From Psammoneis japonica (lineage: Eukaryota): a stretch of 20,000 nt of DNA. Of this stretch, positions 2,903 through 20,000 are shown piece by piece. Both the position numbers and the translations under genes were made by a program. The stretch spans positions 133,970 through 153,969 of the forward strand of contig QPGO01000176.1 in NCBI GenBank assembly GCA_008632985.1. The letters run 5' to 3'. The notes below the pieces were generated by a model that had not been told where the DNA came from, made no database searches, and saw only the letters and a program-made list of their open reading frames with translations. The first letter of the stretch is position 1. Each line of letters opens with the position of its first letter.

Positions 2903-4702
2903 TTACTCCCCCAACTCTCCGAGAGTATTACTTTCCGATACCAGAAAAAGTCTGGGCATGAGATCTACAATTCGTTCATAATCTCGTCGAAAGGCGCGAG
3001 CGTCATGGTTCACCAGGTGGATCCACCCAGCGTCAGTACGAATATCAACTGTGGGTGCGATATGATGTCCCAGATCCATAAAGTGTGGGTATATTTCTAA
3101 TGCTGCAACGCTCTCCATCCTTTCAATTTCATCCAAAGCCGCTTCATTCAAGCCCATCAATATTCCATCAGCATGATTGACCAAGTGAACAATGGCCCCA
3201 TGGACTCGCGGCGAAGCCAAATCTGGCAGCGAGTCCCATTGGAGCCGAATTGGCGGAGGTTGACCTTCATCGAGTACGGCATCATCACTGACCTCATTGA
3301 AACTATTTTCTAGATAGGCAGAAAGAAGCATATCAAGAACATTGTAACCAATACAAAACATGGTAAGGGGCGCAAAGTCAGTATTGTGTTGACGGCAATT
3401 GACTTCGACCAACCGCGGCTTCCCGGTGGAATCTACAATGACTTCGCAGTGAGTCATACCCCATCGGATCCCAAGAGCATCCAGAGTCTTTGCAATGTAA
3501 TCGTACACCGCTCTCCCAATTTCCGTGTCGGCATCCACCAATTCTGTTGCATGATAAACAAAGTGAGCTCCATTGGCACGGCGCTTGTCATACTGCCAGA
3601 GAGCTCCAATCTTATGATGCCCATTTTTGCTAACAACATCAATGGCATATTCTGTGCCAGACGCAAACTCTTGGACCAAAACCGTATCGTGCTTTTCTCG
3701 AGGGGACCCGAAAACCGTGGAGCCATGAACCGTGTCGAATGCTGATTCTACCTCGTGGATATCACGACACAAGAACACATTGTCCGAAGCGACCCCTCGA
3801 ACCGGCTTGACGACACAAATAGGCTTCCGTAGTGGCTGAGCAGTACTTGCTATTTTTTCCATTCCGAGTTTTCCGATTTTGTTTATGTCGTCACTTCCTC
3901 CGCGGTCAACAGCAATCCCCTCAATGCGGATTCTGAGTTCATTAGCAAACTCGACTGCTTGTTCTCTACTACGACACAGCTTTTGCTGTACAACATCCAG
4001 TCCATACTCTCCCACTGCTTTATTCATGAGAAACTTGTCACGTCGTGCTTCATTGATGCCATTGGTATGGGTGACATTGAGCCGATCTCCCCAACGCTCG
4101 GCATCTGGCAGTCCCGAATCTGTTTCACATATAATACCAACAATTTCATCAAAAGGTAATTGGTCCATCCACTCTTTTGTTTTGTTGAGAGAAGGCAGTT
4201 GCTTCATGAGTTCCACATTGACTCGTTCTACTTCTTCCATGGGCGCCGACTCATCAAGCTCTTGCTTCCGAATTTGAAAGTAGCCTTTCATGTAATCGCT
4301 CAAGACGTAAGCAACACCAACGCCATACGCCTCTCTCGCCATTTTTGACAAGTACCCCGAGTGATAAATGGAAAAAACGTCCATTAAAATCAATCCCCTT
4401 TTTATATTTTTGTCGTGTTTATTCCAAACTGAGGGTAAATCACAGCACGGCGACAACTCCCCTTCTGAAGGACTTACTCGTGAATGATCTGTTTCTTTAC
4501 CGCTCTTCTCGTTTTCCATGCCACCACCGCGAGCCAACAACGGTGACGAAGTAGGTTCATTCTTGTCGATCCTTCCACTTATCAATGCCGGAGGAACCGG
4601 GACAAAGGAAAGCGAATTCTTTGCTGCTACCACGCCAACATGCCGTGAAAGAAACAACATGAGGGAGACGGAGCTTAGGACGCATCGATTTCGCATCTTC
4701 AT
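2903..4702 (-). CDS. ATP-grasp domain protein (L-amino-acid ligase / carboxylate-amine ligase-like) with N-terminal signal-like peptide
   Basis: Intact ~599-aa frame from ATG 4702 (MKMRNRCVLSSVSLMLFL..VVAA). ATP-grasp motifs: ARRDKFLM, VVKPVRGVASDNV, VLVQEFASGTEYAID, THCEV, LVEVNCR. Confidence 0.85.
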   Translation of the reverse strand: MKMRNRCVLSSVSLMLFLSRHVGVVAAKNSLSFVPVPPALISGRIDKNEPTSSPLLARGGGMENEKSGKETDHSRVSPSEGELSPCCDLPSVWNKHDKNIKRGLILMDVFSIYHSGYLSKMAREAYGVGVAYVLSDYMKGYFQIRKQELDESAPMEEVERVNVELMKQLPSLNKTKEWMDQLPFDEIVGIICETDSGLPDAERWGDRLNVTHTNGINEARRDKFLMNKAVGEYGLDVVQQKLCRSREQAVEFANELRIRIEGIAVDRGGSDDINKIGKLGMEKIASTAQPLRKPICVVKPVRGVASDNVFLCRDIHEVESAFDTVHGSTVFGSPREKHDTVLVQEFASGTEYAIDVVSKNGHHKIGALWQYDKRRANGAHFVYHATELVDADTEIGRAVYDYIAKTLDALGIRWGMTHCEVIVDSTGKPRLVEVNCRQHNTDFAPLTMFCIGYNVLDMLLSAYLENSFNEVSDDAVLDEGQPPPIRLQWDSLPDLASPRVHGAIVHLVNHADGILMGLNEAALDEIERMESVAALEIYPHFMDLGHHIAPTVDIRTDAGWIHLVNHDARAFRRDYERIVDLMPRLFLVSESNTLGELGE

Positions 4703-5524
4703 CTTCGTCAAACAGATTGTTCTACTCTCTACTCTCTCTACTAGTAGAGTACAGAGAGAGCCTGTTCCTGCCCACCAAGCCAAAACCAGCAGTCAGCATT
4801 AGCATGTTGTTGTTCGGTACTTTTTTGTGGAGCTCGAAAAGCTCGTGTGTAATTGCCCCTGCCTGATGGGGTGAGAAAGCATACCATACTGTATTTTTTA
4901 TTCGTGCATGTTGATCTCAGTAATATTTATACGAATGTATTAAATTTATGTACAATTGTACACGAATGATAACGTATAACCACCCTATATATCAACGGGG
5001 CCGTTTGTATGTACGACCCCTGCCATTATCGGTAGTCGTATGCGTTATCCGTTGTGAAAATATTAGCCCGTTATTGAAACTGTTACTTCTATCATGGCTA
5101 CCAAAATTGATACAAAATTTTCATTATCACCTACATGTGATTCCAAATTTTATGGGGAGTCCCGGTGACGGTAGGGCCCTAAGTATTCGTCGAGTGCGCA
5201 ACATTACACGAACCAGCCAAAAATCCCGTGACCCTCTCACAATTTTACAATTTCATCAGCAAAATATTCTGATTCGAACTACCGGTAAACAGGTGAAAGG
5301 TAAGTAGCATCAATTGTTATTGCATGTACTCATCATCAAAGTGACTGCGCCTTCCTGATGAGTGTCGAGTCGTCCACGAAGCTGTCATGTCGCAGTTTTC
5401 CATCGCTCCCGATATCTCTTTCGTTGCCACTGTTGGCCTTTCGTCCCCCCGTGCCTCCAACTTTGTTCTGCTTTGCCCGCATGCGCTGAAGCCTTCCTCG
5501 TGACTGTGGCGTTCCAAGGCGTCC

Positions 5525-5816
5525 TAGCTCCTTGTGTCCTTGGAGACGTCGGTTCATGCCATTGTGCACAGTGCAGCGAAATACTTGTCGAACCGGCAGT
5601 AGTCCGGGATGAGAAAAAGATGTTTTTGGATGTTCGTATAGGTGGGCTCACCAGACTCCCATGTCGCACTTCCTGGAGAGTCTTACTATAGCTCCTTGTG
5701 TCGTTGGAGACGTCGTTCATGCCATTGTGCTCAGTGTTACGAAGTGCTTATCTTGCCGGCGGTGGTCCTGGATGAAAAGATACTTTTTGGATCTTCGAAT
5801 AGGTCGACTCACCAGA
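5525..5816. repeat. Diverged direct duplication, ~130-bp unit (5525-5655 and 5689-5816)
   Basis: Both copies start tagctccttgtgtc.ttggagacgtc.gttcatgccattgtgc.cagtg and end tttttggat.ttcg.ataggt.g.ctcaccaga. Confidence 0.85.
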
Positions 5817-5995
5817 TCGCGAGCCAAAAATGCGCGCTTCACCGTCCTCTGTCTGCGATGATTCGCGTTTTTTTTCTTCGACGCGAAAATCCATGATCAC
5901 CATGATGTGTCCGTTTGTCCCTTAAATACTGAGCCCATGTTCATATCTGTCACTCACGCTTTCGTTACATGTTTGCCGCTCCCTACAGAATCAAC

Positions 5996-8365
5996 ATGAA
6001 AGTGCTGGTTCAAAAGTTCGCGCTATTGGCGCTTTTGGCCGCCCCTTTGCAAGGCGCTGAGACAGGAGGCCTTCGTGGGCCTGGTCCGCAAAACGACATT
6101 CGCCAACTTCGCAATTTGAGCGTGGGCGGATCGATTCATGGCTGTGTTGCAAATAACAAGGATCTTCGCTTTGTCGGAAGCGGAGACGGCTGCAGCTCCT
6201 ACGAGCAGTACGTCCACTTGAGTGCCTCTGATCTTAGTGGAGAAGTCCAACAGCCTCAAGAGAAGGCAAGCATGCGTCGCCGTCATCTTGGAAAGTCGGA
6301 GACGAGGCTATCTCCGGAATCGCATTCTGGCTCGGGACCAGGAATGTACATGGGAGGTGTCGTTCATGTCTGTATGAAGATGGACAAGTACATCCGCTTG
6401 GTCGATGGCATGAGCATGTGCAGCAATTCGGAAACCTACGTCTACTGGAAAGTAAAGGGAGACCGAGGCAAAGACGGAAAGGATGGTAAAGATGGAAAGG
6501 ATGGTAAAGATGGGAAGGACGGTTCCGACGGAAAAGATGGTAAAGATGGAAAGAAGGGAGAAAAAGGAGCTGACGGCGTGAATGGGAAGGATGGCAAAGA
6601 TGGAAGGAACGGAGTCGACGGACAGGACGGCCACGATGGAAAGGACGGCAGAAACGGCAAGGACGGAAGGGATGGTCGAGACGGAAGACATGGAAAGGAC
6701 GGTATGGACGGCTCTAGTGGTGCCGACGGCAGAGATGGCAAGGACGGTGCCGACGGCAGGCACGGCAAAGATGGCAAGGACGGTGCCGACGGCTCAAGTG
6801 GCGCTGATGGCAAGGACGGTGCCGACGGCAAGGACGGGAAAGATGGCGAGGACGGTGCCGATGGAAAGGACGGGAAAGATGGCGATGACGGTGCCGACGG
6901 AAAGGACGGCTCTAGTGGCGATGACGGCAAGGATGGTGCCGACGGAAAGGACGGAGCCGACGGAAAGGACGGTGTCGACGGAAAGGACGGTGTCGACGGA
7001 AAGGATGGCGAGGACGGAAAGGACGGTGCCGACGGAAAGGACGGCAAAGATGGCGACGACGGAAAGGATGGTGCCGACGGAAAGGACGGCGCGGACGGAA
7101 AGGATGGCAAGGACGGTGCCGACGGCTCAAGTGGCGATGACGGCAAGGACGGTGAAGACGGCAAGGACGGAAAGGATGGCGAAGACGGCGAAGACGGAAA
7201 GGATGGCGTCGACGGAAAGGATGGCAAAGATGGCGATGACGGAAAGGACGGAAAGGATGGCGATGACGGAAAGGACGGCGCCGACGGAAAGGACGGAAAG
7301 GATGGCGATGACGGAAAGGACGGTGCCGACGGAAAGGACGGCTCAGACGGAGCGGATGGCAAAGATGGAATGGACGGCTCAAGTGGCGATGACGGAATGG
7401 ACGGCGCCGATGGAAAGGACGGCAAAGATGGCGAGGACGGCAAGGACGGAAAGGACGGCGCCGACGGAAAGGACGGAGAAGATGGCGATGACGGTGCCGA
7501 CGGAAAGGACGGCAAGGACGGCGATGACGGCAAGGACGGTGCCGACGGAAAGGACGGCAAGGACGGTGATGACGGCAAGGACGGTGCCGACGGAAAGAAT
7601 GGCGTCGACGGAAAGGATGGCAAAGACGGAATGGACGGTTCAAGTGGCGATGACGGCAAGGACGGTGCCGACGGCAAGGACGGTGCCGATGGTAAGGATG
7701 GTGTTGACGGCAAGGACGGAAAGGATGGCGAAGACGGCGATGACGGCAAGGATGGCAAGGACGGAAAGGACGGCGCCGACGGCTCCAGTGGCGATGATGG
7801 AAAGGACGGCGCCGACGGCAAGGATGGCGAAGATGGTGAGGACGGCAAGGACGGTGCCGACGGCAAGGATGGCGATGATGGCAAGGACGGTGCTGACGGC
7901 AAGGACGGCATGGACGGCAAGGATGGCGAAGATGGTGAGGACGGAAAGGACGGAAAGAACGGCGTCGACGGAAAGGACGGATCAAGTGGCGACGACGGAA
8001 AGGACGGCGTTGACGGCAAGGATGGCGAGGACGGCGAGGACGGCAAGGACGGCAAGAACGGCAAGAATGGCGAGGACGGAAAGGATGGCGTAGACGGCAA
8101 GGACGGAAAGGATGGTGAAGATGGCAAGGACGGCGTCGACGGCAAGGACGGTTCCAGCGGTGATGACGGCAAGGACGGCATGGATGGCAAGGACGGCAAG
8201 GACGGCGAGGATGGCAAGAACGGCAAGAACGGCAAGGACGGCGAGGATGGCAAGGACGGTGAGGACGGCAAGGACGGCAAGGATGGCAAGGACGCTGTCG
8301 CCTTTTCGCCCAGTATGGATTCGCCTGATGATTCGCACATGGCCTCCCCCAGTCATTCGCGTTAA
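5996..8365 (+). CDS. Secreted collagen-like (Gly-X-Y) protein with duplicated Cys-containing N-terminal module
   Basis: Signal peptide MKVLVQKFALLALLAAPLQGA, then GLRG and RxL motifs (RQL, RHL), two GG.[IV]H.C......R.V.....C...E.YV modules, and a long Gly-X-Y tract. Alternative in-frame ATG at 5969. Confidence 0.9.
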   Translation: MKVLVQKFALLALLAAPLQGAETGGLRGPGPQNDIRQLRNLSVGGSIHGCVANNKDLRFVGSGDGCSSYEQYVHLSASDLSGEVQQPQEKASMRRRHLGKSETRLSPESHSGSGPGMYMGGVVHVCMKMDKYIRLVDGMSMCSNSETYVYWKVKGDRGKDGKDGKDGKDGKDGKDGSDGKDGKDGKKGEKGADGVNGKDGKDGRNGVDGQDGHDGKDGRNGKDGRDGRDGRHGKDGMDGSSGADGRDGKDGADGRHGKDGKDGADGSSGADGKDGADGKDGKDGEDGADGKDGKDGDDGADGKDGSSGDDGKDGADGKDGADGKDGVDGKDGVDGKDGEDGKDGADGKDGKDGDDGKDGADGKDGADGKDGKDGADGSSGDDGKDGEDGKDGKDGEDGEDGKDGVDGKDGKDGDDGKDGKDGDDGKDGADGKDGKDGDDGKDGADGKDGSDGADGKDGMDGSSGDDGMDGADGKDGKDGEDGKDGKDGADGKDGEDGDDGADGKDGKDGDDGKDGADGKDGKDGDDGKDGADGKNGVDGKDGKDGMDGSSGDDGKDGADGKDGADGKDGVDGKDGKDGEDGDDGKDGKDGKDGADGSSGDDGKDGADGKDGEDGEDGKDGADGKDGDDGKDGADGKDGMDGKDGEDGEDGKDGKNGVDGKDGSSGDDGKDGVDGKDGEDGEDGKDGKNGKNGEDGKDGVDGKDGKDGEDGKDGVDGKDGSSGDDGKDGMDGKDGKDGEDGKNGKNGKDGEDGKDGEDGKDGKDGKDAVAFSPSMDSPDDSHMASPSHSR
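6458..8293 (+). repeat. Coding 9-bp tandem repeat: 204 uninterrupted Gly-X-Y triplets (GKD, GAD, GED, GDD, GSS, GVD, GMD)
   Basis: 1836 nt = 612 aa with Gly at every third residue and no Pro. Synonymous codon variation between units. Confidence 0.95.
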
Positions 8366-9495
8366 TTCCTCATGTTTTGGTGGTGTTATGGAGAATAAAG
8401 GGCCGCAATTCATGAAGACTGCCTGCTAGCTTAGAGACACATTAACAACAGAATTATATGCACGCTCTCCCCATTTATCCTCTAATGTCATAGAGTACAT
8501 GCATGTCTCGTGCGAGAATCTCTTCAGGAGGAGAGAAGCAGAGGTCACGTCGATCGCGTCAAACATCGGAGCGGCATGCACAAGTTGTTGGCAACCGGTA
8601 TCAAAGGAAGCTGTGTCTGTTTGGCATGAGATATGTTGCACAAATCTCTTCCGAAGACTGTGAATGAGTTAACCGATTCTGGTTTCAGTCAATTCGCCGC
8701 TTCACGCGCCACCGCCTCAACTGCCCCCAGCTCACATTGTAAATCGAAAACTTGCGAGTGTAGTTCATGCGCCGCCAATTCTGATCTTAATGGGTCGACC
8801 AAGGAGACTGCTGGCACTAACATCGACGAGCTCTTTTTTGCGCCTGCGAAGTTCTGCTTCCGTCGTGAACAAGGCAGTGGCCTGATAACTCATTTGCAGC
8901 AATGGGGAACTACAGTCTTTGCCATGCAGGCGCGATTCTAGCTTTCCACGGTTCTCATTGTATCACAGTTGTCCTTGCTTTCGTCTTGCAGCTTTTCAAT
9001 CCAACTTTCGAACTTCTGGCACCTCACAACACCACAGAAGTAGATCCTTTTCCAACTGAAAATTCAAGGTGGGTGTCTCTGGCGATGTTGGCTCAAGTCT
9101 TGGCTTCAGGCGACATGCACTGTGTTCTCCAGATGTGATTGTGAAGTCACTGTGGCGCTGTGCTTGTGGAATGAATGGGGGGCATCACTGGCTGGTGCAG
9201 CTGTTAGCCACAGACCGAGCTGTTGGGAGTGCTGCTCTCTGCTGCCAGCAGTGGCCAGCAGCTGCCAGCTGCCAGCTCCTCCAGCTGGCTGGCAGAGCCA
9301 TCTGGCAGCTGCAGACACTGCAAAACAAGCTCCGGTTCACAAAATCGTGACGTCTTTTCATGACTCACACAAAACTGAATCCGCCAAAACCATCAAAATT
9401 TTTCTTCAAAATTTCATTTCCAATGAAAACCAGTTGGCTCGCTGGATGTGGTTCAGCAAATTGCCCAAGACTTTGGGCCAAAAGTGGCAATCGAT

Positions 9496-9735
9496 GAGTC
9501 TGCCTTTAAAGGGAACATCAAAGATTGTCTTGTGGGGCTGAGATGCCAGTGCATGACAACATCCATGCAGAGGCTGTGTGGCTGGCCTGGCACAGTGTTG
9601 CGCTGCTGGGCACTGATGCACCAGCAAGACAATTGGAGAGTGTGCCTTTCAAGGGCACATCAAAGATTGTCATGTGGAGCTGCAGCATCAGCGCGAATGA
9701 CACCCATTTGGAGCAGTGGTTGGCGTGGCACAGTG
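9496..9735. repeat. Diverged direct repeat, ~142-bp period, inside island 1
   Basis: gagtctgcctttaaagggaacatcaaagattgtc (9496) vs gagtgtgcctttcaagggcacatcaaagattgtc (9638). Both are followed by tggc.tggcacagtg. Confidence 0.8.
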
Positions 9736-10513
9736 CAGCATTTTGCAAGGTGCTGCCGTGCCACCAGCATGGGAACTGCATTTCGACAAGGTCGCTGCTC
9801 TGCTCTTGATGAGTGTGCTCAGAGCTGGGATGATGAGCAGGTCATTGTGCAAAATGCCTTTTCCAAATGACGTGGCAAGTGCATTGTGTGTTGCTTGGCA
9901 GGCAGCACCTTTGCTGGCTCAAGTTTTTTCACACGGCAGGGAAGATCAAAGATCAAAGGGTGCTTGTTTTGCAAACAAAGCGGGGCTCACTCTCTGTCTG
10001 ATGCTGGGTGCCCATCTCTTTGTTGTGAAAGTGAGCTGCTGCCACCACTCTGCACACATGCACGCCATTGACATGAGCCAAAATGAGGCACGCCAGACTC
10101 AACAAACAAAGCTGGCAAGGTGCTGACATCACACCATCTTCTGGCTGCAAAGCCCAGCACAAAAAAGGATGCAGGCAGCAAACCAGACTTGTGGTTTCCT
10201 GCAAATGTTGAAGCACATGCACAAAACAGCAGCACCCCAGCCAAAAAGAAAATCTGCAAGAGGTGTGCTGCACACACAGGGCTGATTCTGTGGAAAAAAA
10301 AAACAACAATGTGTGTGTGTGGAGGTGCTTTTTGAAGAAGCCGTTGAATGGGGCCACACTCCAAGCACCTCGCTGTTGACAATTTTGAGCACACAGCTGT
10401 TCTGAGAATCTTTGTGTTTGCAATTTTGGCAGTGCAGGGGCTGGCTGCAGATGACAAAACAGTTGCCAGGGCAGCACCAGGTTGCAGCCAGATCTCATGA
10501 AACTGACACCCCC

Positions 10514-10639
10514 CTTTCCGATCTCAACTTGGGTGCAATGACAGCCTTCCCAGCCATTTTCATTTGGCCTGCACATGGCTGTTGCCCCGTGACCAAATCA
10601 GTTTGTCTTTCCGATCTTGACTTGGGTGCAATGACAGCC
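10514..10639. repeat. 33-bp direct repeat (10514-10546, 10607-10639)
   Basis: ctttccgatctCAacttgggtgcaatgacagcc vs ctttccgatctTGacttgggtgcaatgacagcc. Confidence 0.9.
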
Positions 10640-11165
10640 ATGACTGTCTGGGTGCTTTTTGTGCAAATCCAAGCACCTGCACTTGATCATTGCCACAGAT
10701 GTTTTCACTCATGGGAACATTTTCAAAATTGTCACTGAAATTGTTGTGTTCAATGTCTTCATGTTGAATGTTGACACATTTGGCTGTCTGGGCAATGATT
10801 TCCACGCCGATTTGTCCACTTGTCTTCACCCACCCTCACTGGCTCAATCCTTGTGTTTCCAGTCCAGTTCCAGACGTGCCAGAAGATCGCGCATGCCACC
10901 AATGAAACAGTGCGCGTTTCTCCACTCTACAGTAGAGTAGAGAGAGAACAGAGTCGCGAAAACGAATGCAGCACGAGTACACTGGACTACAATTATTGCT
11001 TGTAGCATTCCACCGTGGCGCTGTTTTCATATCATTATGTACAGACAACAGCAAAAGACTAGAAAGATAATCATGCCTTACAGACAACAGGAACACACTA
11101 GAAAACATCGCTACTACCGCGTTCAGCTACTCGACTGCGCCCATCAACTCAACATCGACAACACC

Positions 11166-13962
11166 TTACGGAGCACGAAGCAGATTCTCCAAGGCGGTCT
11201 TGGCCATGGTGGCATAGGGTGCAGCCTCCGTCTTGAGACAAATTTTGCAAGCATTCACACCCTCTTTAAATGTGAGTTCCGCCAAGAATTGCATCGCAGT
11301 CACGGTACGCATGGAAAAGTAGACAACCTCCTGTCCCTCGGCGTTCGGTACGGGACGACGGGCAATAAAAAAGACATTGTTAGTCTTGAATTTGGCTTGG
11401 ACCTCTTCAATATCCGTCGTGGGCAAGTCGGTCACGGTGCTGTACATTTCCTTTTGGTCGTCAATCGACTTCCACGCTTCGATAAAGGCGGATCGATCCA
11501 GGGCACCGTCTGGGCTAAAGAGTGCCTCTAATGCAAAGTTGGCGGCAAAGTAAAAGACGTTGCTCGTGGCCATGTTCTTAATGGCAACTTGAATCTGTGG
11601 AGACGCTTGCTGTCCGGCAGCAACAGGTGCCAGCATAGCGGGAGTCACGACAAGCTCTACTTGGGCCGCTCCCGACGAACCATGTGGAACGTGCGGGTTC
11701 AACATAATCTGCTGACTTGCAGGGCTCAACCCAAACGCGTTCTTGTTCAACTGAATAGCCAAGTTAGATACGGGCGTCTCGGAAGAGACGTTGCGAAATT
11801 CCATTTCCATCTTGATTGCCGAGTTGATTTGATGGAAGCCAGCAAGGATTTCAATGCCGCCAGACTTGTCGGGAGTACAAACCTGGTGCATGATGGGCTT
11901 GGACTAAAGCAGTAGAGCGCGGAAAAAATGTAAAGGGGTAAGAAGACAACAGTGACAAAATTATAACAGCAACATATGGAGCAGCACGTACCACAACTCC
12001 AAAAGCATCTGGCGCCGATCGGTCGTCCGTCACAGCGAGTCCTCCCATATCTAGCAAATCCACCTGTCCGTCTTCACCATCGTCTACATCATTCTCTCCT
12101 TCATACTCCACATCTTCCTCCTCGTCTTCTTCTTCGTAAGCCTCCTCTTCGACACCCCGTCCCGCGTGCCCACGCACCACAAAGGCTTCAGGTGGCTTGT
12201 GATATACCGAACTGAGAGTGGCAATCTGTCCAATGAGCGCGTTAAGCAGCGCCGGTTCCAGCCGAAAGGTGTCATCCTCAATAACGGGCTTGTCGCCAAG
12301 CACCACCATTTTGGCTGCTTCCGGATCCGTACTGAGCAATCGCCAGTAGATAAAGCCACGATCTCTTAGGTCTGGATTGTCCGATTCCTCCGTGGCCATA
12401 TCCAAAACGCGCTGTACCATGTCTTGGGTATCTTCGGGGTTTTTCAAAAAGCACTTGACGGTTGCCGTCAGTAGTTGCAGCTGCACTGCGGGGTCTTCTT
12501 CTTCAAAGGTTTCCAAAAAGGTATCGAGCAACTCATCGGCATTGTCAATCCGCTCTGCGTATTCTCCAATAATCCAAATCATACTCGCCTTGGCAAGTGG
12601 TTCGTCGAGCGTGTCAAGATTATCACAGAGAGTGGCAATTATGCTTTCATACCGATTGGGGTAACGACGGAAAATGTCCTTAATGACAATAACGGATTCC
12701 TGCACCACATAGTTGACCTTGGTTTGAATGAGTTCAAGCAAGACGCCAATGCACCGTTCCGCGGCGCGTTCCAACTTGACGGCGCACCGTCCAATAGCCG
12801 AGACCGACTTGCGGACAAAGTCAACATCAACCTCGGTGGCGTACTCCTTGAGTTCCAAAAGGACTTGATCGATATTCTTTTCGGAAACGAGTTTAATAAT
12901 AATCTCAAGCTTTTCCATCTTGACGTAGATCGGGTCATTGTACTTGCAGAAGAAGACCTTGATCTCGTTCTCCAAAATGCTGGGACGCTTCTGCACAATT
13001 AGGTTAATGTTTCGGAGTGCCACGTACTGAACTTCCGGCTCGCTATTCAAAAGAGTAACAAGCGGTGGAGCGAGTTTGCGTGTCAGGTTGCGAACCGCGT
13101 CCGAGTTTTGGTTTCCCATGTACTCCATGTAGCTGAGAATAACTTTGACAGCACTCATCACAACCGCCGAATTGGCATGCTGCAGTCGCGGAGTGACTCG
13201 TTCGATAATTCCCTCAGCTTCTCGTCCATCCGTAGGAGTGTACTTGGCGAGCGAATCCAAAATAAAAACTTGTCCCCACTCGGTACACTCGTTGAGTGCG
13301 GCCAATAGCTTCTGCAAGACACTGGCCGAAATCTTCATGACATCCCGTCCAGACGTTTCGGCAATTTCCGAAAGAGCCGCCACGCCATTGGCCACTACGG
13401 ATGGATTGGAATCGGAAATCAAATCATGCAACACTTCTAAAAAGCCTCGTTCTTGCACCAGCGCCGGAGCAATGTCGTACAACTTGGCAACACAAACAGC
13501 AGCTGTCTTGCGGACATAGGGATCGTCATCTCGCAAAGCACGCGAGAGAGGTTCGCAGAGATACTCCGTAATGCGATCGACACGAATACAGCCCATAGTA
13601 CGGACGGCAAGTGCTCGAATAAGCGGATTGGGATCGTTGGCGTCCTTCACAAAGGTGTTTACAGCCAACAGCGTTAGTTCCGGTTGGCTCTTGGCATAAT
13701 TGATCAAGTACAGGTACACGAGCTTTTTCAATTCGATATTTCCTGTTTGAACGCAGTTCAACACATCGGTAAACAGCATAGATACGTCCTTGCCGACCGT
13801 CATGCTGGCAATTACTTTCTTTACAGCGTCCACCTTGGTGTTGCGGTCTGTCGAGTGCAATTCCAACCGGAGCTCGTGCATCTCGCCTTTTTTCTGCGTC
13901 GTAAAGAAGCGAGAGTCGGAGCCAGCCGCTCCGCCCGGACCATGACCACTATCTTTGGGCAT
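11166..13962 (-). CDS. AP1B1: AP-1/AP-2 adaptor complex beta subunit (beta-adaptin), 2 exons: 13962-11992 and 11903-11166, ~902 aa
   Basis: Adaptin N-terminal trunk ([54 protein letters not shown]), an acidic hinge, and the beta appendage ([22 protein letters not shown]). Splicing joins DAFGVV|SKPIMHQ in frame. Confidence 0.95.
11904..11991 (-). other. 88-nt GT-AG spliceosomal intron in beta-adaptin
   Basis: Minus-strand donor GTACGT at 11991, pyrimidine-rich tract, acceptor TTTAG ending at 11904. Phase 0; removal restores the reading frame. Confidence 0.9.
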
Positions 13963-14583
13963 TGTTCTTGATGTTTAGCAGTAGTGCTGCGTTATGTTTC
14001 TGTCATGCAAAAGAGAGACAGAGCAGAGAGCAGCGAAGTCAGAAACGGTATGATTGACAAGAAAAAAGCATCGCGTATCCACGGCCGGCGTAGAAAGTGT
14101 ACTGTGTTCTACGTAGCATCACGCAATCACACAACCAAGCAGCGTTGGTCTCTGTTAAAGTTGCTCTCGATACACAGCGCAGTCCATCAACCGATGCGTT
14201 ACATTCAAACGTCGCTTTTGTTGCTCACCTCAAAATGATATCAATAGAGACAAAAACACGGCGTTTGGAGAGGCGCACAACGAACAAGTGCCGACCGGTT
14301 GTCTTTGGCTGCGAGTGGACAGTGTGAATGTTGAACAAAGACCGATTATCCTCGAATATAAAGCGCTGAATAATGTACAATATATGGGCTATTCATACAC
14401 GATTGTAAATAAATTTTCAATAAAAATATGTCTATCAGTCAGTGCGGCTGTGGAATGGGTGACGATGTTGCCTGGCTGTCGATGCGTTACCGTGCCAAAT
14501 GCGCGCAAGTCGCGCGAATTGACTGACGTGTGTTGTATTCTTCCCTCCGACCTCCGACCCGCCGACACCTACCGAACCCGACC
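13963..14583. promoter_or_regulatory. Divergent intergenic region (probable bidirectional promoter) between beta-adaptin and CysRS
   Basis: Head-to-head gene arrangement with an AT-rich core at ~14355-14430. No specific element verified. Confidence 0.45.
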
Positions 14584-16318
14584 ATGGCCATTTCCCTCCA
14601 AACACAAACCATCCTTTTGAAAAGCTTCGCGATATTCACCATGGCACGCTATTCCCTTATTGCTGTTTTTTTCGTTATCTATAATGACTCTCCCATCAAT
14701 GCGTGGTCACCCACTAATTGCATACCTTTTCAAAGAAACGGAGGAATACAACAACAACGACGCCACATCAAAACATCTTCATCTTCACTCCACGCCATTT
14801 CGCAAGACGATTTGATCCTCTACAATACAAAAACACGTCAAAAAGAACCCTTTCAAACTCTTGAAAAGAATAAAGTCAGTATGTACACGTGTGGTCCGAC
14901 CGTCTACGACAGTGCGCACGTTGGAAACTTTCGTGCATTCCTGACCTATGATGTACTCAAACGAGTCTTGCTGTATCTGGGATACTCGGTAGAGCACATT
15001 TGCAACCTAACCGACGTGGATGACAAGATTATTAAAAAATGTCAGGATACGAATACGGATCTTTATACCATTACGAGAAAATATGAACAAGCCTTTATGG
15101 ATGATTTGGACGCGCTCAACATTATCCGGGCGTCCAAGTACCCCCGTGCAACAGAACACATTGATGAAATGGTCGAGTTGGTACTCATGCTGAGGGACAA
15201 GGGACTTGCCTATCAAACTGATGAGGGATCGTGGTATTTTGCAGTAGACAAAAAAGAGGGCTATGGACAACAATTGGTGCAACTCAACTTTGACGAAATG
15301 GAAGCGTCTGAGCGAAATACAGAACAAGACAAGCGCGGTGCCTTTGACTTTTGTTTATGGAAAGCCTATAAGCCCGGTATTGATTTGGAGCAAGATGCCA
15401 CGTGGGATAGTAAGGAGTTGGGAAAGGGACGGCCAGGATGGCATCTGGAATGTTCCGCTATGGCTCGAAAGTACTTGGGTGACACTATTGACGTGCATTG
15501 CGGCGGAGTGGATTTGACCTTTCCCCATCACGAGAACGAAATCGCTCAATCTGAGGGAGCCACCGACAAGGTCTTTTGTAATTGCTGGGTCCATAATGGC
15601 TTTGTCAATATTAATGACGAGAAAATGTCGAAGAGTCTCGGCAACTTTCTGACTTTGCGAGCGGCGTGTCCCAAACCAAACGAAGTCCGTGCTTATCGTT
15701 ACTTGGTGTAAGCTCACAGTACAGGAATCCGCTCAGTTTCACTCCAAAGGCCATGAGTGCCGCCAAGGGAGCACTCAAGCGAATGGACAAGATTCGAAAT
15801 GAAATTGCAGACGCATTGAAGGAGACGGTGCAAGAGGATTCATGCAGTATGAATGCCAAGGACAGCGAGATTGCCTACAAGGTGGTTCGTGCACAGATTG
15901 ACAATTTTGAAGCCGCATTGGTGGATGATTTGAGTATGCCACGAGCAGCAGCATCTCTCTTTGCCTGTGTCAAGGCTGCCGAGAATGAATTCAAACGTGT
16001 CAAGAAAGCAAAAGACGAGGGTGACGTGCCTCCTTTGGATTTGGTTGGCTTGAAAGCCGTCCAGGACGCCATGGACCAAATGGATAAGGTTTTTGGTATC
16101 TTTTATCAAGTTCCTTTAACAGAAAAGGAGCAAGAGGAATAGAGGCAAAGACCGTAGTACCCGACCAAGTACTAGACTTGGTGGAACAGAGGACAGCCGC
16201 CAAAGAGGCCAAAGACTGGGAGCTGGCGGATTCTTTGCGAGCGAGAATTACCGAACTAGGCTTTGCCGTCAAAGACGTAAAGGGAGGCGATCCAATAGTT
16301 AGTCGAGTAACAGACTAG
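14584..16318 (+). CDS. cysS: Cysteinyl-tRNA synthetase, organellar/bacterial type, with two apparent -1 frameshifts (~15707, ~16140)
   Basis: MYTCGPTVYD, HVGN (HIGH motif), NLTDVDDKII, DFCLWK, GRPGWHLECSAM, FPHHENE, KMSKSLGNF. Continues in the next frame (SSQYRNPLSF, DDLSMPRA) and a third frame (R..AK..KDWELADSLR..I..LG..VKD) to TAG 16316-16318. In-frame ATGs at 14584 and 14641. Confidence 0.92.
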
Positions 16319-16797
16319 AGCGCGCTACTCCCGTTGAGAGTTGGCATGGTGTTTTGACGTGGGACCAGTCCTGTCGAATTGGTAGCGAGAGAGTCGTGCT
16401 GCGTCGTCATCGCTGCCTTGTTTGATCACTCTGCAGGTGTCGTGAGGAGCGTTATGTTTTTAAACAGCATGTCTTAGCAGAGTTGCGTGTGACAGGCAGA
16501 TGACACTGGTTGGCTGTATCCAGTTGTAAAAATCTTCCTCTCTAACTGCCACATACTACCGGTAGCAATGGCGATGTGAGAGAGGAAAAGTCGTACTTGA
16601 AAGCTTAAGGCACACTCTACTGTCACAATTCACGACAACTACAATGTCCACTACTACTGCTGCTGCTATTTATGAGCCAACTCGGCGTAAAAGAAGCATT
16701 CGGTACTTCAGTTCCGTGCGTAAAGGATGGATCTACGTGCTGCGGTAACAACAGCTCGCATTTCCCACACTTGTTGTTATTTTGACCTGCCTCGGAG

Positions 16798-16817
16798 CCC
16801 CCCCCCCCCCCCCCNCC
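16798..16817. other. Poly-C tract containing an N (probable contig/scaffold junction)
   Basis: C17-N-CC with N at 16815. Composition changes abruptly across it. Confidence 0.75.
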
Positions 16818-17006
16818 AAACACGCATGCACGTGTTCGTCAAGCCCTTGTCAGTGCCATTTGACCAATGTAAGAGCTGCACATCCGAAGCTTCAAATGCC
16901 ACTCATCAGCCTGTTGCCAGGTTGAAATCACCGCCAATCTTTGCCAAAATTGCACTGCTTGTGGCAGAAAGCCACAACTTTCCAGGAAATGCTGCTGACA
17001 GTTGGC

Positions 17007-17155
17007 ATTTGATTGTCCACAGAGACAAAGTCTGCAGCTGACAAGCTGAGCATCTTGCATGACCAGATCCATGGTCAACAATCCTTGAGGATTTGATTGT
17101 CCACAGAGACAAAGTCTGCAGCTGTTGCATGACCAGATCCGTGGTCAACAAATCC
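17007..17155. repeat. Tandem duplication, 84-bp period
   Basis: atttgattgtccacagagacaaagtctgcagctg...ttgcatgaccagatcc[a/g]tggtcaacaa at 17007 and 17091. Confidence 0.9.
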
Positions 17156-17517
17156 TCTCGAGGAGATTGGGGTCAAGCTTGTGTCCAGTGCACTTGAGAG
17201 CATCATTCTGAGCACAGCACAACACAGCACTTGCACTCCACATGGTGAAGCAAATCAATCATGCTCTCTTCTGTGACTGCACATTCTGCAACAACAGCTT
17301 CCATCCTGCGCCTGAGTCCAGGACAGCTGAGCCTGTCTAAAAGGTCAAGAAGGAGGGCTGGGATTTCTTGAGCAGAGAACTTTGACCAAAAAGTTTTTCA
17401 CAGCACAAGAGTTGGAGAAAGGATTGAAAGCAACATGGCTTTGTTCCATCAGCCACACTTGCATGATTCTTCTTGTGTTTGCACTTGGATTTGCACTGAG
17501 CTTGCTCTGCAAGAGCA

Positions 17518-17894
17518 CTCTTGAAATGTTCTTCCTCCAACAGCAAACAAGATGTTGGAAAATTTCATTGACTTGCAGACAAGGCCCAACATCCTTCTGG
17601 GAGCAGGTCTTGGCAGCATTCTTTGGAGGGCTCCAAATCTGAAACATTCCAGGATTTTTCAACGCAGAGCCAGAAGGAGCTGCAGCATGGTCAGCAAGTT
17701 GTTGCTCTTGAAATGCTCTTCCTCCAACAGCAAACAAAGCATTGTTGGAGAGTTTCATTGACTTGCAGACAAGGCTCTCCCAGTGTTCTTCTGGAGAAGG
17801 TCTTAGCAGCATTCTTGGGAGGGCTTTAAATCTGAAACATTCCAGAATTTTTGAATGCAAAGCCGGAAGGAGCTGCAGCATGGTCAGCAAGTTG
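17518..17894. repeat. Tandem duplication, ~187-bp period
   Basis: ctcttgaaatg.tcttcctccaacagcaaacaa ... gaaggagctgcagcatggtcagcaagttg at 17518 and 17705. Confidence 0.92.
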
Positions 17895-18813
17895 CGGCAT
17901 GTGGGCACTTGCCAAGTTGCTGCTGTGGTGGCTTTTGGTGTTTTGACATCATGGCACATCTTTTCAGCCCATGGAGCTGCAAACTGTTGTTGTCCACAGG
18001 TGTGTCTGCCACTCCAACCACCAGCACATCACACCTGTCATCTTCAGTCCACCTCATTTGCTTTTGCAGCCAAGACAGCAGGCCAAGCATGCCAGAAGAA
18101 GATGATCTCTTGTGGGCAGCTGAGCTCTCAGAGAAGTCACCACGCAGTGGAGCAGCATGCAAAAGGAGAAGATGGATGGAAAGATGATGGATGACAAGAA
18201 GAGGCTGCCCCAGCTCCCCCCGCTGTTCTTGGCAGATGATTGGTGTGGTGATGGGATCCATGGAGGCAACCTGACATGAGCCAAATTGCTGAAAACCCCA
18301 TTTCTGTTGACTGGCATGCTTCTCACAATTGTCTGCACATGTGCTTGGCACTGTTTTTTCCACAGTTTTGGCCAGATTGTTTGATCTGGTGCTGGCACAA
18401 ATCATGTGTCTTCAGTTGTCATGCTTGGTCTAGAGTCAGAGATCTGTGCAAGCCAGCCAGCTGCACATGATGCCTGCACTGTTTTGTTGACTTTGACACA
18501 TGGGATCACAGCATGGCAGTGCATCTTGGTGCTTTTGTCATTTTGGTTTGGCCGCTGGTCAGCCGTCACAATGCCTCTCAATCCAGGTAAAATTTGATCT
18601 GCCATTTTGTTTTTTTTGGGTTTCTCACACCAGAGCACAAGTGTGTTGTTCATGTGGCCTGCAACAAAATGTCTGCTGTTCTGCATTGTCAGGTTTTTTC
18701 TTCTTTGTGTTTGGCATGTTTGGTGTCATTTCTTTTTGTCTGCCATTGTGGTTGTCACACTTGATTTCTGTTGTTTGTCTGTCTTTTGTGAGCTTCTCTC
18801 TGAGTGACCACCA

Positions 18814-18976
18814 TTCCGACATTTTCAAATCTGTTGTCCTTTTGACCATTCGACCACACATCATGTGTGCTTTTGTGCCAGCGGAGAAATTGCTTTCTGA
18901 CATTTTCAAATCTGTTGTCCTTTTTGACCATGACACACATCATGTGTGCCTGTGTGCCAGTGGAGAAATTGCTTTC
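18814..18976. repeat. Tandem duplication, ~81-bp period
   Basis: gacattttcaaatctgttgtccttttgaccat...cacatcatgtgtgc...tgtgccag.ggagaaattgctttc occurs twice. Confidence 0.9.
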
Positions 18977-19703
18977 ACACAACCTTTTGTGATTTCAAAT
19001 CTTTGTTGCTCTGCTGCAAGAGCAAAATGTTCCTTTTCTGAAGCCTTGGACCTTTTTCCTTCTGAGTTGCAAGCCATGCAGCTGTGTTTCTCTCATCTTT
19101 GTCATGAAAGAATGCTGAAATCAAGGTCAATGCAGGATCTCAAGATGGGGCAAAGCGAGGGTCGGCAGGAGCAGCAAGAGGCGATGTGTGCGCCGGCAGC
19201 ATTGAGAGATCGACATTGTCAGATGCTGTGCTTTTTGTCCAGACGTGTGTCCCGCTTGACAGGGTCATTGGGGTTGCATGCAATTCCGTGACAAGTGATC
19301 ATGATGGCGTCTGCAGCATGAAATGTTGTTGCATGTCTGCTGCGTTCAACTGGCGATCCTTCGCAGGCACCTCCTCTGTTTGTGTCAGAAGGTGCAGGGT
19401 GGGCGGATGTCATCCCCGTGCGCCGGCGATTCTTCCGACAAAGCAACACAGGCCTGTCATGAAAGATCAGTGGCATGAATGCCCGCATTGCCCGCATGTC
19501 ACCGTCATCGCAAAACCTCTAAAGTTTCGGTCGTTGCCATCGCCCCAAAGTCAGAATCCACAGCCCCTGCCTGCATCGTCATCGAGGCCAGAAGAGCATT
19601 CCGCTTTGTGCATTGGAAAGATTCTGGGTTGGCACTGAGTGCAATCGTTTCAACAAAACAACAGAAGAATCTCGTTCCAAACAACGCAGCTGGGCAACGT
19701 GAC

Positions 19704-19902
19704 GTCGACGGCTTCCAACCCGAGGGCAAATGACGACGAATCACCGTGCTGACATTGCCCAGCGTTTTGCCAAACAAAAAGGACAACTGCGGTGACGTCA
19801 TGTCGACGGCTTCCGAACCCGAGGGCAAACGACCAAGAACAATCACCGTGCTGATGTTGCCGGATGCACCAAAATGAACATGCGTTTTGCCCAAACAAAA
19901 GG
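19704..19902. repeat. Diverged tandem duplication, ~98-bp period
   Basis: gtcgacggcttcc..acccgagggcaaa.gac...aatcaccgtgctga[ca/tg]ttgcc...gcgttttgcc.aaacaaaa occurs twice. Confidence 0.85.
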
Positions 19903-20000
19903 ATGGTTGCGCGACAGTGCAACTGCCACACACTCTCGCGCCATGGCTCCGAAATCAAATTTGCGCAAGAGCCACAGTGCAAGTTTCGGCGAAACACTCA

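What the first reader, a model, noticed from the sequence alone, without database searches (positions are those of the whole stretch)
19141..20000. TpA loss is uncoupled from CpG decay
Seen: 19141-20000 has more than 50 CpG but only one TpA (19520). In contrast, 17161-19140 has lost both (about a dozen CpG in 2 kb). Inference: TpA erasure is a separate and apparently faster process than 5mC deamination, and the CpG-rich segment would be younger or less methylated. This argues against explaining the islands as ordinary methylation decay.
Basis: partly seen in the sequence, partly recalled or inferred. Interest (0 to 1): 0.75.

Follow-up and report, generated by a model that had tools for sequence, protein, structure and literature searches.

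The report
TpA erasure outruns CpG decay
In this diatom-like genome, a stretch of dead DNA beside a gene has had its TA steps rewritten to TG or CA about ten times faster than its CG steps decayed, so an adenine-mutating process, published so far only for one unrelated alga, acts in the same silenced regions as CG decay but runs ahead of it.

Summary
Counts confirmed: 59 CpG and 1 TpA in 19141-20000; 11 CpG and 5 TpA in 17161-19140. Paralogs that escaped show what happened. All 35 aligned ancestral TpA are gone (14 TG, 14 CA, 2 CG, 5 other), while about a quarter of CpG were lost. Another copy mutated the same sites independently (22 same, 21 opposite outcomes). TpA loss runs about 9-11 times faster than CpG loss at both loci.

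The two are nested, not uncoupled. In a 600-kb sample, 0 of 372 TpA-normal windows are strongly CpG-poor, 40 of 281 TpA-free windows keep CpG, and CpG falls from island edges inward. The segment is not newly arrived DNA. It is old gene-fragment DNA, including a condensin CAP-H2 relic, next to a methionine aminopeptidase gene, at the edge of a 4-kb island. It most likely entered the silenced domain late.

Closest published case: TpA hypermutation in Bigelowiella natans (bioRxiv 2026). The enzyme is unknown; a TadA/ADAT-type deaminase is my best guess. The scan noted this process many times before on other pieces of this genome.

The parts
19141..20000 (.). The finding: TpA-erased, CpG-retaining part of the island. 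Continues 826 bases beyond the window in the C501 copy.
   Evidence: 59 CpG, 1 TpA; 0 of 35 ancestral TpA kept; island ends at C501:3716
19520..19521 (.). Sole surviving TpA, in CTAA, one of the most protected contexts
   Evidence: TA also present in paralog unit u1, so probably a true survivor, though the live C7 gene has CA here; CTAA/TTAG retention 0.23 against 0.004-0.025 for RTAY
19091..20000 (+). Low-copy mosaic shared with a non-autonomous Helitron-derived family (C22, C47, C116, C331). Its left end lies about 50 bases from the CpG step.
   Evidence: 80% identity from 19184, weaker from 19091, nothing convincing further left; family carries a PIF1 C-terminal piece whose relatives lie about 3.3 kb downstream of Helitron_like_N
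19478..19677 (-). Dead, frameshifted relic of the acidic region of a condensin II CAP-H2 gene
   Evidence: 79% over 165 bases (19478-19632) plus 86% over 35 bases (19643-19677) to a live ORF on C7, which bears CNDH2_N, E 1e-18, with CNDH2_C in the next ORF
19668..19911 (+). Two tandem units of about 100-120 bases; single in the TpA-retaining relative on C90 that served as outgroup
16779..19090 (.). Old core of the island, poor in both CpG and TpA: pieces of dispersed repeats (16780-17080 with 39 other listed matches; 18062-18492) and short tandem duplications
   Evidence: CpG o/e 0.10 in 17161-19090 and 0.34 in 16779-17160; 16 of 19 paralog alignments differ by 6-12% transversions, three short ones by less or about the same
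14584..16318 (+). Cysteinyl-tRNA synthetase gene flanking the island on the left, with normal TpA and CpG. A methionine aminopeptidase gene flanks it on the right (C501:1754-3265), convergent.
   Evidence: PF01406 E 1.9e-103; intact 597-aa frame in C501; PF00557 E 3.2e-38
8962..10926 (.). Second TpA-free island in the window, same nested pattern
7001..8000 (+). Control, not part of the process: TpA-free only because it encodes a Gly-Lys-Asp repeat; CpA is low (0.40-0.74), unlike the islands

Best explanation
The genome has silenced domains in which two clocks run. The fast clock converts A:T to G:C only at TpA, on either strand, best at 5'-TAY; TA becomes TG or CA and the site is then spent. 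The slow clock is CpG>TpG/CpA decay, as expected from CG methylation. Both are switched on inside the same domains, at roughly 10 to 1. DNA that entered a domain recently, or lies at its edge, has lost TpA but kept most CpG; DNA long inside has lost both. 19141-20000 is such an edge. It is gene-fragment DNA that lay beside the methionine aminopeptidase gene with normal TpA. A Helitron derivative copied it in that state, and it was then overtaken by the domain around the older repeats to its left. Erasure fades out about 450 bases short of the gene's stop codon. SHOWN: direction, strand symmetry, context, independence per locus, rate ratio, nesting, fading toward the gene. INFERRED: CG methylation as cause of the slow clock, spreading, the direction of capture, the order of events. 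GUESSED (about 0.4): the lesion is adenine deamination to hypoxanthine by a TadA/ADAT2-type enzyme recruited to silenced chromatin.
For: 0 of 35 TpA kept, 14 TG to 14 CA. With C90 as outgroup, A>G occurs after T in 9 of 11, after A in 2 of 91, after C in 2 of 97, after G in 1 of 69. This locus and C331 took the same outcome at 22 and the opposite outcome at 21 shared sites. C331 branch: 184 of 199 TpA hit, 72 of 299 CpG, 22 of 2,287 other A/T, 12 of 1,956 other C/G, 19 transversions in 5,239 sites. Rate ratios 9.4 (C331) and 10.5-11.5 (this locus). Polarised CpG loss here is 13 of 56 against 4 of 51 in the escaped family, P=0.036. Nesting. Fade: 3 of 27 TpA kept in the island part beyond the window, 13 of 17 kept next to and in the gene. 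Survivors: 0 of 65 where both strands read TAY, 8 of 32 where both read TAR. CG-methylated TE islands are described for diatoms (PMC9998398, passages); PF00145 has 27 matches here.
Against: No methylation data; DNMT5 was not identified. Unpolarised CpG changes within the finding's own coordinates are symmetric (16 lost, 15 gained); the excess appears only with outgroups, on small numbers (P=0.036) pooled from two partial alignments. The segment keeps more CpG (0.95) than is typical at its distance from an edge (about 0.38), and the CpG step lies at a junction between two repeats, so the core may have arrived already decayed. In the deep interior CpG rises again (0.36 beyond 5 kb against 0.26 at 3-5 kb), so distance from the edge is not the only factor. 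Ten of 62 ancestral TpA became TC, GA, AA or TT, which deamination alone does not predict. Against the live C7 gene only 2 of 9 sites where the paralog has TA also have TA, so that outgroup does not by itself polarise them. No deaminase with a chromatin domain was seen among 9 PF00383 matches. The data cannot tell a lesion on A from one on the paired T.
Confidence: 0.72

Rival explanations
1. Episodic burst: TpA is erased to near-saturation in rare RIP-like episodes, after which CpG decays slowly and steadily. The 10:1 ratio then reflects only time since the burst.
For: In B. natans only 11 of 15 lines were hypermutated (preprint). TpA is flat at about 0.05 from the island edge inward while CpG is graded. 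Both measured loci are near saturation, so the ratios are closer to lower bounds.
Against: Within TpA-free windows residual TpA still tracks CpG (Spearman 0.42). TpA-retaining copies differ at 14 of 241 TpA sites against 9 other transitions in 5,945 sites (unpolarised), and one tandem unit is half-erased (5 of 20 kept); both suggest gradual loss.
Confidence: 0.3
2. One reading: TpA loss is independent of CpG methylation domains, and the segment is a younger insertion.
For: 40 of 281 TpA-free windows keep CpG o/e above 0.75. The segment and the core belong to different repeats, and the core's found relatives are more diverged.
Against: 0 of 372 TpA-normal windows have CpG below 0.3 and 3 of 372 below 0.5. 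CpG is 0.95-1.01 right up to island borders. CpG change is about tenfold higher inside an island at equal age. The segment is colinear with the flanking gene's 3' end in four copies and split from its paralogs while TpA was intact.
Confidence: 0.12
3. TpA loss is a by-product of 5mC decay: repair of T:G mismatches by an error-prone polymerase (Pol eta type, A>G at WA; recalled) mutates nearby A:T pairs. A variant is N6-methyladenine at TpA followed by deamination.
For: It would explain why both losses share domains.
Against: ApA is untouched (5 of 988 against 115 of 148 for TpA), whereas the WA signature includes AA (recalled). TpA is exhausted when only a quarter of CpG have changed. In B. 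natans 230 of 231 mutations were A:T>G:C. No 6mA data; adenine methyltransferases were not searched.
Confidence: 0.1
4. The polarity is reversed: the paralogs gained TpA by fungal-type RIP (CpA>TpA).
For: Diatoms carry DNMT4 enzymes related to RID (PMC9998398, passages). At 2 sites the live C7 gene and this locus share CA where the paralog has TA.
Against: Paralog TpA o/e is 0.64, the genome background. The 21 opposite TG/CA outcomes need a TA ancestor. 13 of 13 TpA shared by the gene-side DNA of C501, C22 and C47 are TG or CA in C331.
Confidence: 0.02
5. GC content, coding constraint, or RNA editing fixed by reverse transcription.
For: GC is 54%; the window holds a coding stretch with no TpA (7001-8000).
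Against: The paralog is 48% GC with 35 TpA, so the GC rise follows the loss. All six frames have 3-7 stops. Pfam found nothing over the segment's homologous part in the C22 or C90 copies. Both strands are hit equally, and the loss fades in place toward a neighbouring gene.
Confidence: 0.02

Closest known systems
TpA hypermutation of integrated NCLDV and virophage DNA in Bigelowiella natans (bioRxiv 10.64898/2026.01.13.699255; parts 1-3 of 5 read)
   Same: A:T>G:C at TpA on both strands giving TpG/CpA; confined to defined regions; ADAT2-type deaminase proposed, not shown; TE domains enriched among TpA-poor genes.
   Different: There: measured de novo, two viral regions, TpA still present (Rho 0.45), almost no GC>AT change; the text never mentions CpG or diatoms. 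Here: near-saturated (o/e about 0.05), 46% of a 600-kb sample, Helitron cargo and gene-flanking DNA hit, CpG decay nested inside at about one tenth the rate, 5'-TAY preference.
Repeat-induced point mutation (RIP) of ascomycetes (recalled)
   Same: Dinucleotide-specific transition hypermutation of repeats on both strands, locus by locus.
   Different: Opposite direction: RIP makes TpA from CpA. Copies 98-99% identical over kilobases (C22, C47, C116) have mostly escaped here, so duplication alone does not trigger it.
CG methylation of TE islands in diatoms by DNMT5 (PMC9998398; passages)
   Same: Isolated islands in an otherwise normal genome; fits the CpG decay seen only inside islands.
   Different: Cannot produce TpA loss; 'TpA' occurs 0 times in that paper.
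TadA/ADAT2-Tad3 adenosine deaminases: fungal mRNA editing with U at -1 (PMC11156358, PMC11087585) and amphioxus ADAT2 acting on DNA (PMC10354150); search listings and abstract starts only
   Same: A read as G after U/T; the UAC anticodon-loop target of TadA (recalled) matches TAY.
   Different: Those act on RNA, or on DNA in the amphioxus assays; none is shown to erase TpA from chromosomal domains.
Helitron gene-fragment capture (recalled)
   Same: The family holding the unmutated copies ends in a Helitron-type PIF1 piece and carries fragments of at least two host genes.
   Different: It is only the vehicle that preserved the earlier state; termini and target site were not checked.

Membership tests
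B. natans-type TpA hypermutation | A:T>G:C transitions restricted to TpA, both strands | tested here: met
B. natans-type TpA hypermutation | Confined to delimited regions, genes spared | tested here: met
   45 islands in 600 kb; TpA o/e about 0.05 inside, 0.6 outside
B. natans-type TpA hypermutation | Target is integrated viral DNA | tested here: not met
   Segment holds a host CAP-H2 relic and adjoins a host gene; the preprint itself extends the idea to transposons
B. natans-type TpA hypermutation | Almost no GC>AT change in the region | tested here: not met
   CpG loss is about one tenth of TpA loss, against a bias of 0.006 there
B. natans-type TpA hypermutation | Ongoing at about 1000 times the base rate, in a subset of lines | not testable with these tools
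   Needs mutation-accumulation lines
B. natans-type TpA hypermutation | ADAT2-type enzyme responsible | tested here: inconclusive
   TadA/ADAT2-like frames exist on C38 and C26 (naming from motif recall), as in most eukaryotes; no activity shown
RIP | C>T at CpA, raising TpA | tested here: not met
RIP | Triggered by near-identical duplication | tested here: not met
   C22/C47/C116 copies at 98-99% keep most TpA (164 of 170; 51 of 56)
5mC deamination decay | CpG>TpG/CpA excess over other C>T | tested here: met
   72 of 598 C in CpG against 12 of 1,956 other C; accounts for the slow clock only
5mC deamination decay | CpG actually methylated | not testable with these tools
   No methylome
Pol eta WA signature | A>G at both TA and AA | tested here: not met
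   AA 5 of 988
Helitron derivative (carrier family) | Rep plus PIF1 helicase in the parent family | tested here: met
   5 PIF1 relatives have Helitron_like_N about 3.3 kb upstream on the same strand
Helitron derivative (carrier family) | 5'-TC, 3' hairpin and CTRR ends, AT target | not tested
   Element ends not mapped

The most novel reading that the evidence does not exclude
This lineage has a natural chromosomal adenine base editor: a TadA/ADAT-type deaminase preferring 5'-TAY, tethered to the same silencing mark as CG methylation or acting ahead of it. It spreads from old repeats into host-derived DNA and stops a few hundred bases from expressed genes. Its roughly fixed 10:1 lead over CpG decay would give a two-hand clock for dating when any sequence was silenced. 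Its presence in both a rhizarian and a stramenopile would point to an old SAR genome-defence pathway.
Probability: 0.3. Interest if true: 0.9.

Novelty: new variant of a known kind. Interest (0 to 1): 0.62.

Why it matters
A process that has rewritten nearly every TpA in close to half of the sampled DNA would be a major and, in my searches, unreported force in this group's genome evolution. This locus adds what raw counts cannot: an unmutated copy of the same DNA, two independent mutated copies, a rate ratio to CpG decay, and evidence that the mutation shares silenced domains and reaches non-repeat host DNA. That makes the targeting question testable (methyltransferase knockouts, methylomes, mutation accumulation). 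It also narrows the search for a natural DNA adenine deaminase to one with a TAY preference. Practically, TpA loss removes TAA/TAG stops and Tyr codons, so dead elements keep long open frames and mislead annotation and dating.

Tried and rejected
Literature: five searches found no paper on TpA erasure in diatoms; the library lacks most subscription journals. The preprint's methods (parts 4-5) were not read and its supplements were not seen; its supplementary mutation tables could hold the flanking-base preference and CpG counts that bear on my comparison.

Enzyme search: PF00383 gave 9 matches (dCMP deaminase-like, TadA-like, ADAT2-like, RibD-like, a deaminase fused to a 2OG-Fe oxygenase, one nucleoside-deaminase-like). 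PF02137 gave 4 exon matches at two loci, not examined further. None is a convincing dedicated candidate; other deaminase families and adenine methyltransferases were not searched.

Extending the carrier family's homology left of 19091 with a transition-tolerant alignment gave nothing convincing: only the bin holding the known junction stood well above shuffles, and two other bins exceeded the shuffle maximum slightly.

Whether the mutator also makes CpG from CpA: 17 single-copy CpG with matching partners against 3 discordant, but shared ancestry explains this, and A>G after C is 2 of 97 here; inconclusive.

The family's upstream frame gave only unnamed Atlas clusters at 0.93-0.94, a lead only. 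No RNA holder listed. Pfam found nothing in the translated C22/C90 paralog frames over the segment except one weak hit below cut-off.

'Diatom' is taken from earlier notes and general gene character; I did not test the taxon.

Full report
1. Observation. The counts are right. 19141-20000 has 59 CpG (o/e 0.95) and one TpA at 19520 (o/e 0.02); 17161-19140 has 11 CpG (0.10) and 5 TpA (0.04). TpG and CpA are high in both. With the outside-island TpA level of about 0.6, 27 are expected, P(<=1) = 4e-11. The window is G000:C173:133970-153969 and appears to end at the contig end. Contig C501 is 99.0% identical over window 10635-20000, probably the other haplotype (inference), and continues beyond. Contigs of run X1 match 19046-19277 and 19249-19459 with no substitutions (possibly the same sample).

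2. Anatomy. A two-state segmentation on TpA gives islands at 8962-10926 and 16779-20000; in C501 the second spans 3716-7721, about 4 kb. It lies between convergent genes: cysteinyl-tRNA synthetase on the left and methionine aminopeptidase on the right (C501:1754-3265). The CpG-poor core is made of dispersed repeats. 16780-17080 has 39 other listed matches at 68-87% (40 of 133 candidates scored), and a piece at 18062-18492 has 16 others; most differ by 6-12% transversions. From about 19091 the sequence belongs to another, low-copy family. It holds a frameshifted relic of a condensin II CAP-H2 gene on the minus strand (19478-19677; live gene on C7) and a piece related to C90. The same mosaic, running on into the last codons of the aminopeptidase gene and then a PIF1 helicase fragment, occurs on C22, C47 and C331, and part of it on C116. 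Five relatives of that PIF1 piece have a Helitron_like_N domain about 3.3 kb upstream, so the carrier is a Helitron derivative. The gene is whole at C501 and only a fragment in the family, so I infer that this locus is the donor.

3. What happened to TpA. C22, C47 and C116 kept normal TpA (o/e 0.64 in the C22 paralog). Of 35 TpA shared by C22 and C47 within the finding, none survives: 14 TG, 14 CA, 2 CG, 5 other (using the C501 copy; the pairwise window count was 0 of 32). With C90 as outgroup, A>G occurs after T in 9 of 11 cases and after A, C, G in 2 of 91, 2 of 97, 1 of 69. C331 lost TpA too, independently: same outcome at 22 sites, opposite at 21. Opposite outcomes require a TA ancestor, which rules out RIP in the paralogs. 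Loss fades in place: 3 of 27 kept in the island beyond the window, 13 of 17 kept nearer to and inside the gene. Flanks matter. In C331 the changed strand had 3' C 78, T 56, G 32, A 13 times; survivors were 0 of 65 for TAY on both strands and 8 of 32 for TAR on both. In the genome sample, retention runs from 0.004 (ATAT) to 0.37 (TTAA). Earlier notes suggested this preference; I tested it here.

4. What happened to CpG. In the finding, 37 of 55 paralog CpG are kept, 16 became TG/CA and 15 changed the other way, so unpolarised counts show no excess. With outgroups (C90; tandem unit u1), this locus lost 13 of 56 and the escaped family 4 of 51 (P=0.036). The segment looks untouched because it began CpG-rich (1.23). 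On the C331 branch, which includes the stem to C22/C47, 184 of 199 TpA and 72 of 299 CpG changed, against 22 of 2,287 other A/T and 12 of 1,956 other C/G. Rate ratios are 9.4 for C331 and 10.5-11.5 here; both are near saturation. This locus differs from its paralogs by 31 transversions in 791 sites (3.9%), C331 by 19 in 5,239 (0.36%), yet both are at the same stage. Stage therefore follows time inside the domain, or methylation level, and not sequence age.

5. Coupling across the genome. I took twelve 50-kb blocks at positions chosen blind, from larger contigs (0.66% of the genome). Of 696 windows of 860 bases, 9 were dropped for N. Of the other 687, 281 have TpA o/e below 0.15; their CpG is <0.3 in 163, 0.3-0.5 in 39, 0.5-0.75 in 39 and >0.75 in 40 (a few of the 40 may be compositional; not screened). 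Of 372 windows with TpA above 0.3 the same classes hold 0, 3, 14 and 355; 34 windows are intermediate. Spearman is 0.75 overall and 0.42 within TpA-free windows. 45 islands cover 46% of the sample. Outside, CpG is 0.95-1.01 at every distance. Inside islands of 3 kb or more, TpA is 0.04-0.07 throughout, while CpG falls from 0.63 in the first 200 bases to 0.26 at 3-5 kb, and is 0.36 deeper (borders were defined on TpA, so TpA sharpness is partly by construction). Between C22 and C47, CpG changes are 46 of 136 inside a shared old island and 11 of 345 outside, with transversions alike (15 of 4,859; 15 of 5,945). So CpG decay is nested inside TpA-erased domains.

6. Mechanism. Best reading (0.72): one kind of silenced domain, two clocks, TpA about ten times faster; the finding is a late-entered or weakly methylated edge. 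Direction, context, independence, ratio and nesting are shown. Methylation, spreading and order are inferred. Diatoms are described as having isolated CG-methylated TE islands (PMC9998398, passages), and this genome has 27 PF00145 matches, one beside a chromodomain-like frame. For the lesion I favour adenine deamination by a TadA/ADAT2-type enzyme (about 0.4), because of the strict 5' T and the 3' pyrimidine preference. Homologues exist, but none looks dedicated, and a lesion on the paired T cannot be excluded. The main rival is episodic bursts (0.3), which can overlap with the best reading. Pol eta-type repair fails on ApA (5 of 988). Composition and coding fail on the paralog's GC, on stops in all six frames, and on the window's own coding control at 7001-8000, where CpA is low.

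7. Comparison and novelty. The process works like the TpA hypermutation measured in Bigelowiella natans (bioRxiv 10.64898/2026.01.13.699255; abstract to conclusion read). There, 230 of 231 mutations in two viral regions were A:T>G:C, all reported at TpA, and the text does not mention CpG or diatoms. Two features are not met here (viral target; absence of GC>AT change), so I file this as a variant and not a member. Searches found no report for diatoms. The scan has many earlier notes on this process in this genome, including elements with TpA gone and CpG kept; these are leads and not support.

8. Verdict. Observation confirmed; interpretation partly supported: separate and faster, but nested and not uncoupled, and the DNA is not young. 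New variant of a known kind; interest 0.62.

Noticed in passing
window 5933-8365 +: 810-codon frame with a predicted-secretory-looking start and about 600 residues of Gly-Lys-Asp triplet (collagen-like) repeats; TpA-free for coding reasons.
   Followed up: partly
window 15618-16142 and C501:8281-10071: The cysteinyl-tRNA synthetase frame is broken in the window but intact (597 aa) in C501; probably single-base assembly errors near the contig end.
   Followed up: partly
L106:313-1785 - (C79): Deaminase domain (PF00383) fused in one frame to a 2OG-Fe(II) oxygenase; probably nucleoside metabolism, but an unusual pairing.
   Followed up: no
L116-L118, L122 (C301, C297): Several C5-methyltransferase copies that are broken and rich in Cys/His, as if the methyltransferase genes were themselves TpA-mutated repeats.
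   Followed up: no
L119:2348-3508 - (C34): Chromodomain-like hit (just under cut-off) in a frame beside a C5-methyltransferase match; resembles chromodomain DNMT4 described for diatoms.
   Followed up: partly
C22:99851-105060 versus C47: Transitions outside CpG and TpA are also about fourfold higher inside the island (28 of 4,859 against 9 of 5,945) while transversions are not; unexplained.
   Followed up: partly
genome sample: CpG retention in islands depends on flanks: GCGC 0.74, CCGC/GCGG 0.55, ACGA/TCGT and TCGA 0.33.
   Followed up: partly
one search matches: All 49 Helitron_like_N matches have no stop inside, many in frames of 700-1,900 codons, as expected if TAA/TAG are being erased; their TpA content was not checked beyond the PIF1 loci.
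   Followed up: no
C22:95368-95812, C116:3561-3995: A tandem unit that was partly TpA-erased earlier and now sits in a TpA-retaining element, so mutated DNA can be remobilised.
   Followed up: partly
window 16797-16819: Poly-C run with an N at the left border of the island, just inside the start of the high-copy repeat.
   Followed up: no
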